From sequence record NC_048132.1: a stretch of 50,910 nt of DNA; one strand, 5' to 3'. The stretch is from Escherichia phage vB_EcoS-95. Below, one piece after another: positions 34,500-40,918 of this stretch. Position 1 is the first letter of the stretch, and every line of letters starts with the position of its first letter. The notes below the pieces were generated by a model. It had not been told where the DNA came from, did no database searches, and was given only the letters and a program-made list of their open reading frames with translations. The translations under genes were made by a program, and so were the position numbers.

Positions 34500-34890
34500 T
34501 TTAATGTTGGCGGCAAGAAAGGCGCTGGCGGCTGAATATGAATCACGATTTAAGATAGCCTATGAAAACGTTGATTTTGTGCCGCCTGGAGATGGTTCTA
34601 TGTGGTTAAAATTTAACTACATGGAAGCGGACACGGATCGCATATCTCTTGATAGAAAATGTGTTTCTTACATCGGTTTGGTTCAGGTTGGAATTGTCAT
34701 TCCTCCTGGCGGTGGCACTGATAAAGCGCGTTTGCTGGCTAAAGAGATTGCGAGATTTTTCTATGATGGTAGAATGTTTGAAACTGGCTATATTAGCGAG
34801 GGAGCAAACGTCCACGCATTACTAAAAAGTGAAACAGGTTGGTTCTTGCCGATCCGTTTCAGTGTTAGGCTTGATACAAAGGAGGAATAA
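34489..34890 (+). CDS. Putative tail terminator protein
   Basis: Position immediately upstream of major tail gene; 133 aa. Confidence 0.3.
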   Translation: MHYDLMLAARKALAAEYESRFKIAYENVDFVPPGDGSMWLKFNYMEADTDRISLDRKCVSYIGLVQVGIVIPPGGGTDKARLLAKEIARFFYDGRMFETGYISEGANVHALLKSETGWFLPIRFSVRLDTKEE

Positions 34891-34892
34891 TC

Positions 34893-35555
34893 ATGCACTT
34901 GCCTAATGGTTCTCAAATTTTCATCGGCGTTAATATGGGTGATCCAATTCAAGCTACTGATATTTCAAACGCTAAAGATCCGGTTTTTACTGTTAGTAAT
35001 TCACAGCAGGTCAAAAAAGGTGCTTATGTTCTGATTGAAACGTCTTCCTGGGGTAAACTGGTTAGTCGTGTGTTGCGGGTAAAAGAAGTATCTGATAACG
35101 CAAGCGTAACTCTTGAAGGTGTAGACACAACCGATCAAAACGTATTTCCGGCTGGTTCTAATGCAGCAACTTTCCGAGAGGTGAAATCTTGGGTAGAGGT
35201 TCCTTGCGTACAGGATCTTGCGCAGGACGGCGGCGAGCAACAGTATTACACTTATCAGTGTTTGGCTGATGACCAGGAGCAGCAGTTACCGACTTACAAG
35301 AGCGCAGTTTCTCTTACCTACACTTTCGCGCATGAATATGATAACCCGATTTATCCGATCTTGCGCAAGGCTGAGGAATCCGGCGACGTAACCGCTTTGC
35401 GTATGTACGTTCCGAAAGCTAAAGAGATGCGTTGCTGGGCTGGCGTATTGTCTTTTAATGACATTCCGCAAACCACTATGAACGAAATGGAAACTGTTTC
35501 CCTTTCCGTATCTCTGAAAGGTCGATTTACGTTCTTACCTTCCGACGTTAAGTAA
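34893..35555 (+). CDS. Major tail protein
   Basis: 220-aa ORF upstream of the G/GT chaperone and tape measure (lambda V position); RBS AGGAGG. Confidence 0.5.
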   Translation: MHLPNGSQIFIGVNMGDPIQATDISNAKDPVFTVSNSQQVKKGAYVLIETSSWGKLVSRVLRVKEVSDNASVTLEGVDTTDQNVFPAGSNAATFREVKSWVEVPCVQDLAQDGGEQQYYTYQCLADDQEQQLPTYKSAVSLTYTFAHEYDNPIYPILRKAEESGDVTALRMYVPKAKEMRCWAGVLSFNDIPQTTMNEMETVSLSVSLKGRFTFLPSDVK

Positions 35556-35560
35556 AACAA

Positions 35561-35581
35561 GGGGCGTTGCGCCCCTTTTTT
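35561..35581 (+). terminator. Rho-independent terminator after the major tail gene
   Basis: GGGGC-GTTGC-GCCCC followed by TTTTTT. Confidence 0.6.
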
Positions 35582-35620
35582 CATTCCTGTAAAATCAATC
35601 TATCAAATAAATCAATTCCA

Positions 35621-35639
35621 CTTTTAACAAAAAGTGCTA
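35621..35639 (+). promoter_or_regulatory. Reverse-orientation box giving TGCTATAAG extended -10-like element directly abutting the RBS of the tail chaperone gene
   Basis: Reverse complement of the box; AAGGAG RBS starts 1 nt after the box. Confidence 0.45.
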
Positions 35640-35654
35640 TAAGGAGATCTTGAG

Positions 35655-35972
35655 ATGGCAAAGATGAAACTAACGTTAGGCCCACTGCCTGATTTTAAGC
35701 TGCCTGTTTCTTTCGTGCTTCCAAATGGTGATGAGCAAGTTATTGTTTTTACCGTGCGCCACAAGAAGGCAAGCGAGATTCACGAACGATACACGGCAGA
35801 AAAGCCGATGAGTGACGTAGAAATGATCACCTTCCTTGCTTCCGGTTGGGATCTGGAAGATGAATTTAACGAGGAAAACGTTGCTAAATTGCTGGATTAT
35901 TACCCTTCTGCGTCATTATCGCTGACTGGTCATTATATGAAAGCACTTGCGGGGCAGCGGGTAAAAAACTAA
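35655..35972 (+). CDS. Tail assembly chaperone (lambda gpG analogue)
   Basis: 105-aa ORF between major tail and tape measure; ends in slippery heptamer. Confidence 0.65.
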   Translation: MAKMKLTLGPLPDFKLPVSFVLPNGDEQVIVFTVRHKKASEIHERYTAEKPMSDVEMITFLASGWDLEDEFNEENVAKLLDYYPSASLSLTGHYMKALAGQRVKN

Positions 35973-36289
35973 AGCGGGCGGTTTACCTGTTTTACCTCAA
36001 GCCGCCAACTGACGCACAATTAGAGGCCGTCGGCCTATCCCGTTCAGACTACGAAGGGGAGGAGCCGCCGGAGGTAATTTTTGATGAATCAATGTTTCAA
36101 TCTTGGGATCTGTTTTGCGCCATGCAGACGCAATGGAGATCGACTAGCGGCAGCGTGTATGGGTTCGACTATAACGTTTTGCCCATGCTTTTTGACATTT
36201 ACAAGATTGATGATCGTGAGATGGCGCTAAATGATTTGCGCATCATGGAACAAAAGGCGCTAGAAATGATTCATTCAAACAAAACATAA
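35655..36289 (+). CDS. Tail assembly chaperone frameshift fusion (lambda gpGT analogue)
   Basis: -1 frame after 35969 reads KKLKRAVYLFYLKPPTDAQLEAVGLSRSDYEGEEPPEVIFDESMFQSWDLFCAMQTQWRS... without stops to 36289. Confidence 0.55.
35963..35969 (+). other. Programmed -1 ribosomal frameshift slippery heptamer A_AAA_AAC
   Basis: Canonical XXXYYYZ heptamer 1 codon before the G stop; -1 frame is open from here through ORF 36092-36289. Confidence 0.65.
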
Positions 36290-36310
36290 GCGCCGCGAGG
36301 CGCTTTTTTA
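36290..36310 (+). terminator. Rho-independent terminator-like hairpin before the tape measure gene
   Basis: GCGCC-GCGA-GGCGC followed by TTTTTT. Confidence 0.5.
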
Positions 36311-36328
36311 ATATCTGGAGGTTTTAAA

Positions 36329-39010
36329 ATGGCTGAAAAATACGCTGGCCTAACGCTAGGCGTTGACGTGTCGCAGGTCAACAATGCTGTTAAATCATTG
36401 CAGCAATTCAAGAAGGCAAACGACGACGCAAAAAAAAGCGTTAATGAATTTGTTGATTCTGAGGTTGTGGCCCGACAGCAAGCAAAACAGCTTGCCGAAG
36501 AACTGGCGCGCCAGAAAGCAGAATTTAAGAAAATCCAGGAGTCAATTGATCCCACCGCATCAAAGATGGATAAGCTGAGAAAGGCAGCGACACAGCTTGA
36601 TGCGCTATGGAAAAAGGGCGTTGTTCCTGATCAGACTTTTTTTGAGCTTGGGGCAATTCTTGAGATGCAGCAAAACAAGCTGATCGCAACAAAAAAAGCG
36701 ATGACAGAGGAAGGCCGCGCGGCGCTTGAGGAATCAAAGAACAAGGCGCGAGCAGCGGAAGAGGCTAAAAAATTCGTCCAGGCTTTGCGTGAGCAGGAAG
36801 AAGCAGCAGGAAAAAGCAAGTCTGAATTGCTGGAAATGAAAGCGGCACAGCTTGGAGTTAGCCAGGAGGCAGCACCTTACATCGCAAGACTGAAAGAGCA
36901 GGAAAAGCAGATCCAAAAACTTGGGATTTCTACAGGCCAATACAAACAAGCAATGCAGCAATTGCCAATGCAGATCACAGACGTGGTGACTTCACTTGCT
37001 TCTGGTATGCCCGTTTGGTTGGTCGCAGTCCAGCAGGGTGGACAGATCAAGGATTCTTTTGGTGGTGCATCCAATGCTTTAAAAGCGTTGCTATCTTTCC
37101 TGAATCCGGTAAACGTGGCGTTTGGTTTGCTTTCCGGCACGCTGGCAATTGCTGCATATAATGCCCACAAAGCACAGACAGAGCTTGAGGCAATTAAAAA
37201 AACCGTTCAGGAAACAACTGGCTTGAGTGGTGAGTTTGCCGAAAAGATTGCTATAGGAATCCAGGAGCTTTCCGACAAGACAGGCGAAAGCGCCGAAGAT
37301 CTGGCAAAGGCTTACATAACAACGAAAGACGGCGCGAGCGAGGCGATTAAAAAACTGGTTGACGTTGGAATGACTTATGATGACGCAAAAAAGAAAGTCA
37401 ACGAGTACAAGGGCGCGTCTAGCTTTGTCAGCTTGAATAACGAAATTGCAAACCACAAAAACAAAGTCCTTGAGTTGGGCGAGTCGTGGTATGAAGTTTT
37501 GAAAGCTAAGCGTGATTACGCTTCCCCGTCCGGCGGCCTGTTAGGTAAAGAGCTTGGCTATGTTAATCCTATGCTTAAGTTTGCACTTAACACTTATGAA
37601 GACATTGGAAAGGTCGTAAAAGATGCGAATAAGGACATGGCGGAGCGAGCGGAGCGAATCGACAAAGAAAACCTGTCATTAAACAGAGTGAGAGCGGCGC
37701 AAGAGGCTTTAAACAAAGCCATTGAGGATCAGAAGGGCGTGGCGCGTTCGGCTGATGAAGAACTGAAAAAGCGCGCGGCTGAAAACGTGGAGTTCAGACG
37801 CAAAGAGCTTGAGGAGATCAAGAAGCAGGAGCAGAAAAAGAAAGAGGCTAAAGGGGGAATAGTTCGCGGCCCTACTGAGCAGCTTGATAAAGAGTTGTAC
37901 GTTTTAAAAGCGCAACTGGAAACTCTTAAAGAGCATCGCACTGTTAACGATGTTATTTCTCGCCAGCGTAAATCTTTATGGAGCATCGAAAAGCAGATCG
38001 AGATCCTGGAGAATGCGCAGAGCAAGCGTAAATTGACCGGAGCGGAACAGGCGCTACTAAACGAGCAAAAAGCCGTTCTTGAAAGGGCAAGACAAAAAGC
38101 GGAGCTAGGGGATCAGATTGTTTTGCAGGAGCGCAAAAACAAGCTGGAGCAAGATAGTCTTAAGTTTATCCGTGAAACGGAGGCGGCTATTGATGCGATT
38201 GGCCTTAAGCAACTTGGATACACTGAAAAGCAGATCGAGCGTGAGCTAGAGTTACGCAAGCTGCGCACCGACTACGAGGCGCAAGGCGGAAGCGTTAGCG
38301 ACGAAGTTTTTCAGCAAATGGAGACGAAACTTAAGCTGTATTACCAGGCACAAGACGAGGCGCAAGGCAACTGGTTAGCCGGAGCAAAGAACGCATGGGA
38401 GCTATTCGCGGAAGATGCAAACAATGCCTATGGCAATGTTCAGCAGATTGCAAGCGAGGCGTTAAACGGCCTTACAAACCAATTAGCGAATTTTATCGCT
38501 ACTGGCAAGGCAAACTTTAAAGACTTCTCGACTGCTATCATCAAAATGATTATTCAGATGATCACGAAAATGGTTGTCTTTAATGCGTTATCTGGCCTGA
38601 TGGGTGGTCAAACCTGGACGATGGGGAGCTTGCTTAAGAATATTGGCGGATTTGCTGGCGGTGGATACACTGGCGACGGCGGGAAGTATGAGCCAGCCGG
38701 AATTGTTCATAAGGGTGAATTTGTCATGACGAAGGAGGCAACGCAGCGTATCGGAGTAGGCAACTTGTACCGCATGATGCGAGGCTATGCTAACGGCGGC
38801 GTTGTTGGTGGTTCCGGCTATACTGGCGGTGGCACTGTCACTGGTGGAGCACCTCAATTTAACATCGGTGGGATTGATGTTAGCATCAATAACGGCAATG
38901 ATCCGAAGGGTATCGAAACTGGTGTTAAGATGATCTTTACTGATATGATTAGACGTTCCTGTATGCAGGGCGGGGAGGTTTACGAATTTGTTATGAGCAA
39001 GCGAGGTTGA
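36329..39010 (+). CDS. Tail tape measure protein
   Basis: 893 aa, coiled-coil-rich, Gly-rich C-terminal region; position after G/GT. Confidence 0.8.
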   Translation: MAEKYAGLTLGVDVSQVNNAVKSLQQFKKANDDAKKSVNEFVDSEVVARQQAKQLAEELARQKAEFKKIQESIDPTASKMDKLRKAATQLDALWKKGVVPDQTFFELGAILEMQQNKLIATKKAMTEEGRAALEESKNKARAAEEAKKFVQALREQEEAAGKSKSELLEMKAAQLGVSQEAAPYIARLKEQEKQIQKLGISTGQYKQAMQQLPMQITDVVTSLASGMPVWLVAVQQGGQIKDSFGGASNALKALLSFLNPVNVAFGLLSGTLAIAAYNAHKAQTELEAIKKTVQETTGLSGEFAEKIAIGIQELSDKTGESAEDLAKAYITTKDGASEAIKKLVDVGMTYDDAKKKVNEYKGASSFVSLNNEIANHKNKVLELGESWYEVLKAKRDYASPSGGLLGKELGYVNPMLKFALNTYEDIGKVVKDANKDMAERAERIDKENLSLNRVRAAQEALNKAIEDQKGVARSADEELKKRAAENVEFRRKELEEIKKQEQKKKEAKGGIVRGPTEQLDKELYVLKAQLETLKEHRTVNDVISRQRKSLWSIEKQIEILENAQSKRKLTGAEQALLNEQKAVLERARQKAELGDQIVLQERKNKLEQDSLKFIRETEAAIDAIGLKQLGYTEKQIERELELRKLRTDYEAQGGSVSDEVFQQMETKLKLYYQAQDEAQGNWLAGAKNAWELFAEDANNAYGNVQQIASEALNGLTNQLANFIATGKANFKDFSTAIIKMIIQMITKMVVFNALSGLMGGQTWTMGSLLKNIGGFAGGGYTGDGGKYEPAGIVHKGEFVMTKEATQRIGVGNLYRMMRGYANGGVVGGSGYTGGGTVTGGAPQFNIGGIDVSINNGNDPKGIETGVKMIFTDMIRRSCMQGGEVYEFVMSKRG

Positions 39011-39425: not shown

Positions 39426-40187
39426 ATGGCTAATAAAGAATCAGGTAGAGTTGAATTTGAGAACTGCCTACAAAGTTTATACCCAGGCGAAATTATAACG
39501 CTCGTAGAGATTGATGGGACGAAGTTCGGAGCAAATATTTACCGATTTCACAATGAGAACATCTCTTATACTGCCGAAGAATTAATGCAAGCGCAGCAAA
39601 CCGGAATCTTGCCGCCGAAAGATATTATTTTTCAGGGTGAGGTTTACGGAGCGCGGCCTTTCGGTGTGAGCGGGATTAACTTCACAAGTAACGGCAGGGC
39701 AGATAAGCCTCAACTTATAGTGTCAAACCTTGACAGCAGGGTTAGCGCCATGATCAGAAATTACAATGGCATGATGCAAGCAAAGGTGACTTTCTGGATT
39801 ACGGCAAAGGAATTTATAGGAGAAGGCGGAGCAATCAAAGATGGCGCTTACAGAAAATTGGTTTATTACATTGAGCGCCCAAGCCAGTATAATAGAGAGG
39901 TGGCGAAATTTGATCTGACGTCGCCTTACGATATGGATGGATTGATGATCCCGCCGCGCATCACTCAAAGCGTTTGCTATTGGGCGCAAAGGGGGTGGTA
40001 CAGGAGCGGAAAGGGTTGCTCTTATAACGGATCGGCAATGTTCGATAAAGACAATAAGCCAGTAACAGAACCATCACAAGACTATTGCGCAGGAACTGTA
40101 ACGGCTTGCAAATTGAGATTCGGTCAGCAAAACGAGTTGGATTTCGGCGGTTGCGCGGTGGCGTCACTGCTACGGAGGAATCAATAA
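39426..40187 (+). CDS. Minor tail protein (lambda gpL analogue)
   Basis: 253 aa; C-terminal Cys cluster (CYWAQRGWYRSGKGCSYNG...C..C) as in gpL; gene order M-L-K-I-J. Confidence 0.6.
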   Translation: MANKESGRVEFENCLQSLYPGEIITLVEIDGTKFGANIYRFHNENISYTAEELMQAQQTGILPPKDIIFQGEVYGARPFGVSGINFTSNGRADKPQLIVSNLDSRVSAMIRNYNGMMQAKVTFWITAKEFIGEGGAIKDGAYRKLVYYIERPSQYNREVAKFDLTSPYDMDGLMIPPRITQSVCYWAQRGWYRSGKGCSYNGSAMFDKDNKPVTEPSQDYCAGTVTACKLRFGQQNELDFGGCAVASLLRRNQ

Positions 40188-40918
40188 TGATTAGTGCAAA
40201 AATTAAACTTGAAATAATGCAGCACGTTAAAGAGGAATACCCTAAAGAGGCTTGCGGTGTCATAACTCAAAAGTCACGGGTACAGAAATATCACCGCATA
40301 ACCAACGTGCATGACGATCCAGAAAATCATTTTGAAATGGACGCCGTAGAATACGCTGAATCGCTCGACAAAGGCGAATTAATCGCGGTGGTGCATTCCC
40401 ATTGCGGGGATGGTGCTAGTACGATACCGAGCGCGCACGACTCATGTATGTGCGATGAAATGGGTGTATCGTGGATTATAGTTTCATGGCCCGAAGGTGA
40501 TATGAGAATTGTCGAGCCGCAGGAGAGGCCGCTTATCGGTCGCCCGTGGTCGCTGGGGTCGTTCGATTGCTGGGGTCTTATCATGGCGTGGCATAAACAG
40601 CACGGAGTAGTATTGAATGACTTCCGAAAGCCTTACGAGTGGTGGAAGTCAGAATATGGTGAAAATCTTTACCAGGATAATTATTTGAAAGAGGGATTTG
40701 TTGAAACTAACGAGCCTCCAAAACCTGGTGATATGGTGATTATGCAGCTATCATCGCCAGTCTGGAATCATGCTGGGATTTATTTGGGTAACAATCAGCT
40801 ATTACATCATGCGTTTGGAAAGCTATCTCGCATTGACTTGTATTCTGGATGGTATCAGGAGCACACTGTAAAAATTTGCCGACATAAGGATCTGAAATAT
40901 GACATTGAAAGTAATTAA
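40187..40918 (+). CDS. Tail assembly protein (lambda gpK analogue; JAMM/MPN + NlpC/P60)
   Basis: JAMM-like HSHCGDGASTIPSAHD and NlpC/P60-like CWGLIM...H motifs; start at ATG overlapping gpL stop. Confidence 0.65.
   Translation: MISAKIKLEIMQHVKEEYPKEACGVITQKSRVQKYHRITNVHDDPENHFEMDAVEYAESLDKGELIAVVHSHCGDGASTIPSAHDSCMCDEMGVSWIIVSWPEGDMRIVEPQERPLIGRPWSLGSFDCWGLIMAWHKQHGVVLNDFRKPYEWWKSEYGENLYQDNYLKEGFVETNEPPKPGDMVIMQLSSPVWNHAGIYLGNNQLLHHAFGKLSRIDLYSGWYQEHTVKICRHKDLKYDIESN

What the first reader, a model, noticed from the sequence alone, without database searches (positions are those of the whole stretch)
35655..36289. Canonical -1 programmed frameshift (A_AAA_AAC) producing a G/GT-type tail chaperone
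The gpG-like ORF ends AAA AAC TAA, and the heptamer at 35963-35969 is a classic XXXYYYZ slippery site. The -1 frame is open from the site through ORF 36092-36289, which sits exactly where the lambda T segment would be. This supports the lambda-like tail assembly pathway and corrects the track, which shows 36092-36289 as a separate ORF.
Basis: partly seen in the sequence, partly recalled or inferred. Interest (0 to 1): 0.5.

Follow-up and report, generated by a model that had tools for sequence, protein, structure and literature searches.

The report
T1-like phage tail chaperone frameshift
This is the usual -1 ribosomal frameshift that lets a T1-like coliphage make a short and a long tail-assembly chaperone from one gene start; the feature is real, but it is already annotated in sister phages, so the only gain is a corrected gene annotation.

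Summary
ORF 35655-35972 (105 aa, Pfam Phage_TAC_4) ends GTA AAA AAC TAA, with A_AAA_AAC at 35963-35969 in X_XXY_YYZ phase. The -1 frame is open from 35888 to the TAA at 36287-36289.

- The 123 nt between the heptamer and ATG 36092 evolve as -1-frame coding sequence.
- That stretch holds no ATG, GTG or TTG.
- The DUF1799 and PHROG 680 matches begin 19 and 33 residues upstream of that Met.
- PHROG 17368 matches the 211-aa conceptual fusion end to end (E 4e-100).

The heptamer followed directly by a stop codon is invariant at synonymous sites in T1-like relatives, including T1 itself and Rtp. In Dhillonvirus PTXU06 the frame overlap is exactly the heptamer. Distant Pseudomonas and Ralstonia phages have G_GGA_AAC at the same place.

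The locus lies between the tail tube gene and the tape measure gene in a lambda-like tail module. It is an analogue of lambda G/GT, not a sequence homologue.

It is not new. Citrobacter phage Stevie (same subfamily, same site), Klebsiella phage Skenny and Serratia phage Scapp already carry the joined CDS. Most close relatives, including RefSeq T1, do not.

Still open: the shift efficiency, tandem versus P-site slippage, and whether the adjacent stop codon or a downstream hairpin stimulate the shift.

The parts
34893..35555 (+). Major tail (tube) protein gene, the upstream neighbour
   Evidence: Pfam Phage_tail_3, E 1.2e-63.
35559..35584 (+). Intrinsic terminator-like hairpin plus T run, between the tube gene and the chaperone gene
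   Evidence: Terminator scan. The equivalent site is annotated as a terminator in T1, Sip, Skenny, Stevie and Scapp.
35641..35646 (+). Shine-Dalgarno AAGGAG, ending 8 nt before ATG 35655; it would serve both G and GT
   Evidence: Read from the sequence.
35655..35972 (+). G-type tail assembly chaperone ORF (105 aa), the product of standard decoding
   Evidence: Pfam Phage_TAC_4, E 5.2e-31, covering the full length. PHROG 569 and 17368. Variability peaks at the frame-0 third codon position.
35963..35969 (+). Slippery heptamer A_AAA_AAC, the proposed -1 shift site
   Evidence: In phase. Invariant in 35 of 39 distinct relatives. It is the whole frame overlap in PTXU06. Replaced by G_GGA_AAC in Pseudomonas and Ralstonia phages.
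35970..35972 (+). Frame-0 stop TAA directly 3' of the heptamer; a possible pause element
   Evidence: A stop codon follows the 7-mer in all 39 junction sequences. The overlapping -1-frame residue after Leu varies (K, R, I, T) but always begins with A.
35969..36289 (+). T-type extension in the -1 frame (106 codons plus stop). GT = join(35655..35969,35969..36289), 211 aa
   Evidence: Open frame. Pfam DUF1799 matches fusion residues 128-206 and PHROG 680 matches 114-209, both starting upstream of Met147, which is ATG 36092. PHROG 17368 matches 1-209 end to end, E 4.3e-100. The -1-frame third-position variability is the same upstream and downstream of 36092.
35976..36007 (+). Possible stimulatory hairpin: GGGCGGUUU pairs with AAGCCGCCA over a 14-nt loop, about 6-7 nt after the heptamer. 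The outermost pair, 35976-36007, is G-C in 17 of the 39 sequences but G/A (unpaired) in the window, where the predicted 8-bp stem is 35977-35984 with 35999-36006
   Evidence: Minimum free energy -20.5 kcal/mol, z -1.27. 83% of cells paired, against 38-59% in slid controls. Covariation is weak, RNAalifold predicts no pairs, and three relatives break the stem by synonymous changes. Status inconclusive.
36288..36311 (+). Intrinsic terminator-like hairpin plus T run, overlapping the end of the T frame, before the tape measure gene
   Evidence: Terminator scan. Annotated as a terminator in T1, Sip, Skenny, Stevie and Scapp.
36329..39010 (+). Tape measure protein gene, the downstream neighbour
   Evidence: Pfam TMP_2 (E 1.6e-35) and Tape_meas_lam_C (E 1.9e-22).

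Best explanation
The window is a T1-like coliphage genome (Drexlerviridae, Tempevirinae). Ribosomes start at ATG 35655, and most of them terminate at TAA 35970. This gives the 105-aa G-type tail assembly chaperone.

A minority of ribosomes slip back one nucleotide on A_AAA_AAC (35963-35969). They then read CTA AAG CGG... in the -1 frame as far as TAA 36287-36289. This gives a 211-aa GT-type fusion: all or nearly all of G, followed by a 106-residue DUF1799 extension.

By analogy with lambda G/GT, G and the G part of GT coat the tape measure protein encoded just downstream. The T part recruits the tail tube protein encoded just upstream. Neither protein ends up in the virion. The weak slippery motif fixes a low GT:G ratio.

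Shown here: the anatomy, the coding status of the -1 stretch, the lack of an independent start, the conservation of the site, and family membership. Inferred: that the fusion protein is actually made, how efficient the shift is, and the chaperone function.

The residue at the junction depends on the mechanism. Tandem slippage gives ...RVKN-LKRAV. A P-site-only slip of the lysine tRNA gives ...RVKK-LKRAV.
For: - Anatomy: the heptamer is in phase and the -1 frame is open from 35888 to 36289.
- No independent start: ATG 36092 is the only ATG, GTG or TTG in that frame. The 41 conserved residues before it cannot be started independently.
- Coding phase: the most variable codon position switches from frame-0 position 3 in G (1.37 bits) to -1-frame position 3 in 35970-36091 (1.10 bits). 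That matches 36092-36286 (1.06 bits).
- Profile matches: DUF1799, PHROG 680 and PHROG 17368 all cross or precede Met147. PHROG 17368 covers the fusion end to end at E 4.3e-100.
- tblastn: the fusion matches 1124 phage records; 1080 cover at least 80% of it. All but two of the 60 listed records match in two pieces, which I read as two reading frames.
- Site conservation: the heptamer plus stop is conserved at synonymous sites in T1, Rtp, Tempevirinae, Dhillonvirus and Eiauvirus.
- PTXU06: a -1-frame TGA directly precedes the heptamer and the frame-0 TAA directly follows it, so the shift must occur on those 7 nt.
- Distant relatives have G_GGA_AAC at the same place.
- The Met at 36092 is not conserved in Webervirus or in the Pseudomonas and Ralstonia phages.
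- Start signals: the nearest GGAGG lies 17 nt before ATG 36092, whereas G has AAGGAG at 8 nt.
- Context: tail terminator, tube protein, G/GT, tape measure, then M, L, K and I homologues.
- Deposited records for Stevie, Skenny and Scapp annotate the joined product. The Skenny paper says it is analogous to lambda G/GT (PMC6763657).
- A_AAA_AAC supports more than 0.1% -1 shifting in E. coli without stimulators, and its A_AAA_AAC IS cluster is a proven case of frameshifting (PMC4066793).
- The lambda G/GT mechanism and its 30:1 ratio are reviewed in PMC5009743.
Against: - There is no protein or ribosome-profiling evidence for this phage or any close relative in what I could reach.
- A_AAA_AAC is a low-efficiency motif in E. 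coli.
- The downstream hairpin is not statistically distinct (z -1.27) and lacks convincing covariation, so no proven stimulator exists.
- The 7-mer itself occurs at chance frequency in the genome.
- There is no sequence similarity to lambda G or T, so the function is assigned by position and Pfam family rather than by homology to the characterised proteins.
Confidence: 0.9

Rival explanations
1. The second ORF is translated independently from ATG 36092 as a separate 65-aa protein, as public annotations draw it, and no fusion is made.
For: ATG 36092 exists, and gene callers pick it or a nearby start in many records. A GGAGG lies upstream at 36070-36074.
Against: - The GGAGG is 17 nt from the ATG, and it encodes conserved Pro-Glu-Val.
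- The 41 codons upstream are under the same -1-frame coding constraint. They are part of the DUF1799, PHROG 680 and PHROG 17368 matches.
- The Met is absent in Webervirus and in the Pseudomonas and Ralstonia relatives.
- Annotated starts differ from record to record: T1 calls a 55-aa ORF, Rtp uses a GTG 9 nt after the G stop, and VAC10 calls two fragments.
Confidence: 0.03
2. The fusion is made mainly by transcriptional slippage. RNA polymerase adds one extra A in the A6 run (35963-35968), giving an mRNA that encodes ...RVKK-LKRAV in a single frame.
For: An inserted A yields exactly the -1-frame product (from the sequence). Some relatives have A7 (PTXU06, eiAU-183). Only a low level of GT is needed, by analogy with lambda.
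Against: - From general knowledge, efficient slippage by bacterial RNA polymerase needs runs of about 8-9 or more, and A6 is short.
- Homologous sites in Pseudomonas and Ralstonia phages (G_GGA_AAC), Webervirus (A_AAA G) and Scapp and MUC-5 (A_AAG) have runs of only 3-4. They keep tRNA re-pairing potential but not a polymerase-slippery homopolymer.
- The strict X_XXY_YYZ phase is what is conserved, and phase is irrelevant to a polymerase.
Confidence: 0.05
3. A variant mechanism within ribosomal frameshifting. The shift is a P-site slip during a pause at the adjacent stop codon (a 'shifty stop'), or a slip of the lysine tRNA with an empty A site, rather than classical tandem slippage. The conserved stop would compensate for a weak heptamer.
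For: - A stop codon follows the 7-mer directly in all 39 junction sequences.
- The overlapping -1-frame residue varies (K, R, I, T) but always keeps the A needed for T[AG]A.
- Relatives with A_AAG TAT TAA, A_AAG CAC TAA or A_AAA GTT TAA cannot slip in tandem, and they share only the slippery Lys codon next to the stop.
- 'Shifty stop' frameshifting is an established concept (PMC5009743).
Against: [quoted passage not shown]
- The full heptamer, including position 1, is conserved at synonymous sites, as tandem slippage predicts.
- G simply has to end somewhere, and a fixed C-terminus could be a constraint on the protein.
Confidence: 0.2
4. The -1 ORF is a decaying remnant, and only G is functional.
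For: Many records leave the region unannotated.
Against: The frame stays open for 103-106 codons in relatives down to 27% identity. It shows a clear coding periodicity and matches the curated family DUF1799 above its threshold.
Confidence: 0.01

Closest known systems
Tape measure chaperone frameshift of Citrobacter phage Stevie (KM236241, CPT_Stevie15/16; Tempevirinae, Tlsvirus)
   Same: - Same virus subfamily and the same gene order.
- The fusion protein is 81% identical to the window's (L030 is the same contig).
- It has the same GTA AAA AAC TAA junction.
- The record annotates both the short CDS and a two-piece joined CDS.
   Different: Only sequence divergence. The window's closest relatives (98% nucleotide identity: EC195, Kalemo, swan01, tonn) lack the joined annotation.
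Tail assembly chaperone frameshift products of Klebsiella phage Skenny (MK931444, Webervirus) and Serratia phage Scapp (NC_070875)
   Same: Homologous Phage_TAC_4 plus DUF1799 proteins (about 49% and 31% identity by tblastn to the Webervirus and Scapp groups). They sit in the same position, have the same -1 architecture, and are annotated as frameshift products. The Skenny paper calls the site analogous to lambda G/GT.
   Different: The shift sites differ and are not heptamers: GCA AAA GTT TAA (A_AAA) in Skenny, and GAA AAG TAT TAA (A_AAG) in Scapp.
Phage lambda G / GT (-1 frameshift at G_GGA_AAG; Levin 1993, Xu 2004, 2013, 2014, as reviewed in PMC5009743)
   Same: - Two overlapping ORFs lie between the major tail protein gene and the tape measure gene.
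- The second ORF is in the -1 frame and has no start of its own.
- The slippery heptamer is near the end of the first ORF.
- The surrounding tail module is shared: tape measure C-terminal domain and M, L, K and I homologues.
   Different: - No detectable sequence similarity.
- Different Pfam families: Phage_TAC_2 and Phage_tail_T in lambda, Phage_TAC_4 and DUF1799 here.
- Lambda's G runs on for 5 more sense codons (15 nt) between the heptamer and its stop, whereas here the stop is adjacent.
- Lambda uses the efficient ...A_AAG A-site codon, whereas this site uses the weak ...A_AAC.
The A_AAA_AAC insertion-sequence cluster, a proven -1 frameshift (Sharma et al. 2014; I identify it as IS1 insA-insB' from my own knowledge, the paper text shown does not name the element)
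   Same: The same heptamer, working in E. coli at low efficiency with no established stimulator (PMC4066793).
   Different: An unrelated gene system: transposase regulation rather than virion assembly.

Membership tests
G/GT-type frameshifted tail assembly chaperone pair of long-tailed phages (Xu, Hendrix & Duda 2004 class) | Two ORFs located between the major tail (tube) protein gene and the tape measure protein gene | tested here: met
   The tube protein gene (34893-35555, Phage_tail_3) lies upstream and the tape measure gene (36329-39010, TMP_2 plus Tape_meas_lam_C) lies downstream.
G/GT-type frameshifted tail assembly chaperone pair of long-tailed phages (Xu, Hendrix & Duda 2004 class) | [quoted passage not shown] | tested here: met
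   The -1 frame is open from 35888 to 36289. The only ATG, GTG or TTG in it is at 36092, which is 41 conserved codons into the extension.
G/GT-type frameshifted tail assembly chaperone pair of long-tailed phages (Xu, Hendrix & Duda 2004 class) | A slippery sequence, in phase, lies within the overlap and is conserved among relatives | tested here: met
   A_AAA_AAC at 35963-35969 is invariant in 35 of 39 distinct junctions. The other four have G_GGA_AAC or A_AAA. In PTXU06 the overlap is reduced to the heptamer itself.
G/GT-type frameshifted tail assembly chaperone pair of long-tailed phages (Xu, Hendrix & Duda 2004 class) | Both the short and the frameshift-extended protein are made, at a fixed low ratio | not testable with these tools
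   This needs a Western blot, mass spectrometry or a reporter assay. It is inferred only from conservation and from A_AAA_AAC being a weak but active motif in E. coli.
G/GT-type frameshifted tail assembly chaperone pair of long-tailed phages (Xu, Hendrix & Duda 2004 class) | The proteins are required for tail assembly, bind the tape measure protein (G part) and the tube protein (T part), and are absent from virions | not testable with these tools
   Known for lambda (PMC5009743). No data for T1-like phages were found in the searchable literature.
Pfam PF08748 Phage_TAC_4 | HMM score above the gathering threshold over the full domain | tested here: met
   107.9 bits against a cut-off of 21.1. 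Residues 1-105 match profile positions 1-124 of 124.
Pfam PF08809 DUF1799 (the T-type extension) | HMM score above the gathering threshold | tested here: met
   47.4 bits against a cut-off of 26. Profile positions 3-80 of 80 match fusion residues 128-206, starting 19 residues before Met147.
Lambda gpG and gpT sequence families (Pfam Phage_TAC_2 PF06894; Phage_tail_T PF06223) | Detectable sequence homology to lambda G and T | tested here: not met
   BLASTP finds no alignment for G, and E 0.94 for T. Pfam assigns different families to the lambda proteins and the window proteins. The locus is therefore a functional and positional analogue, not a member of these families.
Tail assembly chaperone fold (solved chaperone structures) | Structural similarity of the G domain to a solved chaperone | tested here: inconclusive
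   The single-sequence AlphaFold2 model had mean pLDDT 43.6, too poor for a fold search. A sequence search of the PDB found nothing (best E 0.56, unrelated protein).

The most novel reading that the evidence does not exclude
The frame-0 stop codon directly 3' of the shift site is a selected frameshift stimulator, possibly acting with the hairpin 7 nt downstream. It would raise the output of intrinsically weak sites (A_AAA_AAC, G_GGA_AAC) to the level tail assembly needs.

The stop is conserved in all 39 junctions, from E. coli T1-like phages to Pseudomonas and Ralstonia phages, while the overlapping -1-frame amino acid varies.

If so, the Phage_TAC_4/DUF1799 family would be a natural, phylogenetically broad 'shifty-stop' -1 frameshift class, distinct in detail from lambda G/GT.
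Probability: 0.25. Interest if true: 0.3.

Novelty: already known. Interest (0 to 1): 0.12.

Why it matters
The practical value is annotation. This genome should carry a joined CDS, join(35655..35969,35969..36289), alongside the short CDS 35655..35972. The 65-aa ORF 36092-36289 should be dropped.

The same correction applies to RefSeq T1 and to most Drexlerviridae records sampled here. These records list two fragments, or only G. They often carry the misleading name 'tail length tape measure protein', which is the label given to PHROGs 569, 680 and 17368.

Biologically, the result only confirms that T1-like phages follow the lambda paradigm for tail-length chaperones. The family-wide adjacency of the stop codon to the shift site is a small open mechanistic point.

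Tried and rejected
- **Structure:** a single-sequence AlphaFold2 model of G was too poor to use (mean pLDDT 43.6). I did not run a fold search, and I did not spend a large homologue search to build an alignment, because Pfam membership was already decisive.
- **PDB sequence search:** nothing relevant for the fusion.
- **Downstream hairpin:** it folds at -20.5 kcal/mol, but z is only -1.27. A wider 151-nt fold gave z -0.47. RNAalifold on 39 sequences predicts no consensus pairs. Pair counting shows more pairing than slid controls but little covariation. Three relatives lose the stem through synonymous changes. I therefore do not claim it as a stimulator.
- **Upstream Shine-Dalgarno-like stimulator:** the GG at 35952-35953 is fixed by a Gly codon, so conservation says nothing.
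- **Promoter for independent expression of the second ORF:** none found in 35400-36500.
- **Frame-0 ORF 36081-36230:** a GGAGG lies 9 nt before ATG 36084, but I rejected this ORF as spurious because the frame closes after 3 codons in phage aaroes.
- **Other shift sites in the overlap:** the tetramers C_CCT (35903) and G_GGG (35951) are not conserved.
- **Literature:** Xu et al. 2004 is not held. The PRFect supplement does not list T1. No paper combines Drexlerviridae, frameshift and tape measure chaperone. I could not establish whether T1 itself was in the original 2004 survey.

Full report
**What the window is.** The region 34800-36600 is 95-98% identical to many Escherichia phages of the family Drexlerviridae. 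These include EC195, Kalemo, swan01, tonn, Sip and JLBYU16, which belong to Tempevirinae and mostly to Warwickvirus. The window is therefore a T1-like siphophage genome.

**Checking the observation.**
- ORF 35655-35972 (105 aa) reads ...CAG CGG GTA AAA AAC TAA.
- In frame 0 the codons are GTA (35961), AAA (35964), AAC (35967) and TAA (35970). A_AAA_AAC at 35963-35969 is therefore in the X_XXY_YYZ phase needed for tandem -1 re-pairing.
- The -1 frame is open from 35888 (after a TAA) to TAA 36287-36289. The ORF listed at 36092-36289 is simply the part of this frame that follows its first ATG.
- A_AAA_AAC is the only in-phase heptamer in the 82-nt overlap.

As a bare motif it means little. AAAAAAC occurs 23 times in the window, against 22.1 +/- 4.7 expected. 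The case rests on context and conservation.

**What the two reading frames encode.**
- The first ORF is a full-length Pfam Phage_TAC_4 tail assembly chaperone (E 5.2e-31).
- The -1 extension is DUF1799 (E 2.3e-12).
- In the 211-aa conceptual fusion, Met147 corresponds to ATG 36092. DUF1799 starts at residue 128 and PHROG 680 at residue 114, both upstream of that Met.
- PHROG 17368, a 213-position profile, matches residues 1-209 in one stretch at E 4.3e-100. Full-length fusion proteins of this kind are therefore already in phage protein collections.

**Is the stretch between the heptamer and ATG 36092 coding?** I aligned 49 distinct G-to-T regions: the window, 3 close GenBank relatives, 38 IMG/VR loci, and T1, Rtp, Webervirus and others. 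I then measured column entropy by position modulo 3.
- In the G body the most variable position is frame-0 codon position 3 (1.37 bits, against 0.64 and 0.44).
- In 35970-36091 the peak moves to -1-frame position 3 (1.10 bits, against 0.41 and 0.30).
- That is the same pattern as in 36092-36286 (1.06 bits, against 0.48 and 0.28).

The 41 codons before ATG 36092 are thus under the same protein-coding constraint as the rest of the extension. That frame has no ATG, GTG or TTG before 36092. Only a shift from the G frame can express these codons.

Independent initiation at 36092 is also poorly supported:
- The nearest GGAGG ends 17 nt upstream, and it encodes conserved residues. G has AAGGAG ending 8 nt from its ATG.
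- The Met is missing in Webervirus and in the Pseudomonas and Ralstonia relatives.
- Annotators choose different starts in different records.

**Where the shift happens.**
- Forty of 43 related loci have the identical in-phase AAAAAAC followed by TAA or TGA, with 103-105 further -1-frame codons.
- The third positions of GTA and AAA (35963, 35966) have zero entropy, and that of AAC (35969) has 0.25 bits. The three preceding third positions have 1.19-1.65 bits. This is synonymous-site conservation of the heptamer.
- T1 itself has GCA AAA AAC TAA. Rtp and Edwardsiella phage eiAU-183 also have the heptamer plus stop.
- In Dhillonvirus PTXU06 a -1-frame TGA immediately precedes the heptamer and the frame-0 TAA immediately follows it (CGT GAA AAA AAC TAA). 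The overlap is therefore exactly the 7 nt.
- Pseudomonas phage YMC11/02/R656 and Ralstonia phage YO168_1 are 27-32% identical. They carry G_GGA_AAC TGA at the same place.
- Webervirus has GCA AAA GTT TAA. Serratia phage Scapp has GAA AAG TAT TAA and Klebsiella phage MUC-5 has CAA AAG CAC TAA. These are single-tRNA A_AAA or A_AAG sites.
- A tblastn search with the fusion finds 1124 phage records, 1080 of which cover at least 80% of it. All but two of the 60 listed records match in two pieces. I take this to reflect two reading frames; I confirmed it by translation in the loci I fetched.

Three IMG/VR contigs are exceptions (L004, L039, L043). They have A5 instead of A6, together with other indels or deletions. 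They look like homopolymer assembly errors.

**Genomic context.** The order is: tail terminator (Phage_tail_terminator_5), tube protein (Phage_tail_3), the G/GT locus, tape measure protein (TMP_2 plus the lambda tape measure C-terminal domain), then homologues of lambda M, L, K and I. This is the lambda-like tail module, and the locus sits exactly where lambda G and T sit.

**Mechanism.** The best explanation is low-level -1 programmed ribosomal frameshifting on A_AAA_AAC. It would produce G (105 aa) and GT (211 aa; join 35655..35969, 35969..36289).

In E. coli, A_AAA_AAC and G_GGA_AAC are low-efficiency heptamers. They still shift at more than 0.1% without stimulators. They are common in insertion sequences, and the A_AAA_AAC insertion-sequence cluster is a proven case (PMC4066793). 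A weak site suits a system that needs little GT. In lambda the G:GT ratio is about 30:1 and is critical for tail assembly (PMC5009743).

By analogy with lambda, the G parts bind the tape measure protein and the T part recruits the tube protein, and neither is in the virion. This function is inferred, not shown.

The junction residue is unresolved. A shift after Asn is incorporated gives VKN-LKR. A slip of the lysine tRNA before the A site is filled gives VKK-LKR, and so would transcriptional slippage. Transcriptional slippage is unlikely to be the main route. A6 is short, and distant relatives keep tRNA re-pairing sites that are not homopolymer runs.

**Possible stimulators.**
- *Hairpin.* It lies at 35977-35984 and 35999-36006, with an extra G-C pair in 17 of the 39 sequences, and starts 7 nt after the heptamer. 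It folds at -20.5 kcal/mol, but 16 of 200 shuffles fold as well. Across 39 sequences, 83% of cells pair, against 38-59% in slid controls. Covariation is weak, and RNAalifold finds no consensus. Three relatives destroy the 5' arm with synonymous Arg-Ala-Val codons. The arms encode conserved Arg-Ala-Val and Lys-Pro-Pro, so protein constraint confounds the test. Status: inconclusive.
- *Adjacent stop codon.* It is present in all 39 junctions, even though the overlapping -1-frame residue varies among K, R, I and T while always starting with A. It could be a 'shifty stop' pause element. This is the most interesting open point, and I cannot test it here.

**Comparison with known systems.** The locus works like lambda G/GT but is not a sequence relative.
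- BLASTP finds nothing for G, and E 0.94 for T.
- Lambda's proteins belong to Phage_TAC_2 and Phage_tail_T.
- Lambda's stop lies 15 nt (5 sense codons) beyond its G_GGA_AAG heptamer, not adjacent to it.

Within its own family the feature is already recognised:
- Citrobacter phage Stevie is in the same subfamily, is 81% identical, and has the same GTA AAA AAC TAA. It carries a joined 'tape measure chaperone' CDS.
- Klebsiella phage Skenny carries a 'tail assembly chaperone frameshift product', and its paper notes the analogy to lambda G and GT.
- Serratia phage Scapp likewise carries a joined product.

By contrast, RefSeq T1, Rtp, Sip, JLBYU16, Kalemo, tunzivis, aaroes, Henu4_2 and VAC10 annotate separate fragments or only G.

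**Verdict.** It is a textbook feature that is already annotated in sister phages. Its value is an annotation fix. Novelty: already known. Interest: low.

Noticed in passing
window 35559-35584 and 36288-36311: Two intrinsic terminator-like hairpins with T runs bracket the G/GT unit. One follows the tube gene. The other overlaps the stop of the T frame, just before the tape measure gene. Equivalent terminators are annotated in T1, Sip, Skenny, Stevie and Scapp. This suggests conserved transcriptional attenuation steps from tube protein to chaperones to tape measure.
   Followed up: partly
L004 1501-2121, L039 1501-2053, L043 1501-2119 (IMG/VR contigs): These three relatives have A5 instead of A6 at the shift site, which would put the T frame at +1. 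Each also carries other nearby indels or deletions, and L043 changes frame several times within 600 nt. They are most likely homopolymer assembly errors rather than natural variants.
   Followed up: partly
L050 18431-18442 (Skenny), L060 near 1240-1254 (Scapp), L058 near 967-981 (MUC-5), L053 and L054 (Pseudomonas and Ralstonia phages): Shift sites differ within the Phage_TAC_4/DUF1799 family: A_AAA_AAC, G_GGA_AAC, A_AAA (GCA AAA GTT TAA) and A_AAG (GAA AAG TAT TAA; CAA AAG CAC TAA). In every case the slippery Lys or Gly codon is the last or second-to-last sense codon before the frame-0 stop.
   Followed up: partly
window 35655-36289; records Kalemo, RefSeq T1, tonn, swan01: PHROGs 569, 680 and 17368, which are the chaperone families, are labelled 'tail length tape measure protein'. 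Records that use such names (Kalemo, and RefSeq T1, tonn and swan01) show two or three consecutive 'tape measure' CDSs. This looks like a propagated misnaming of the chaperones.
   Followed up: no
window 36081-36230 (+): This frame-0 ORF of 49 aa is Cys-rich and has a GGAGG 9 nt before its internal ATG at 36084. It lies inside the T coding region and is not conserved: the frame closes after 3 codons in phage aaroes. I consider it spurious.
   Followed up: yes
window 40085-40918 (+): As listed from its TTG, the gpK-like ORF (Prok-JAB plus NlpC/P60) overlaps the gpL-like ORF by about 100 nt. The JAB domain starts at residue 38, and a Met at residue 35 (about 40187) abuts the L stop. The real start is probably there.
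   Followed up: no
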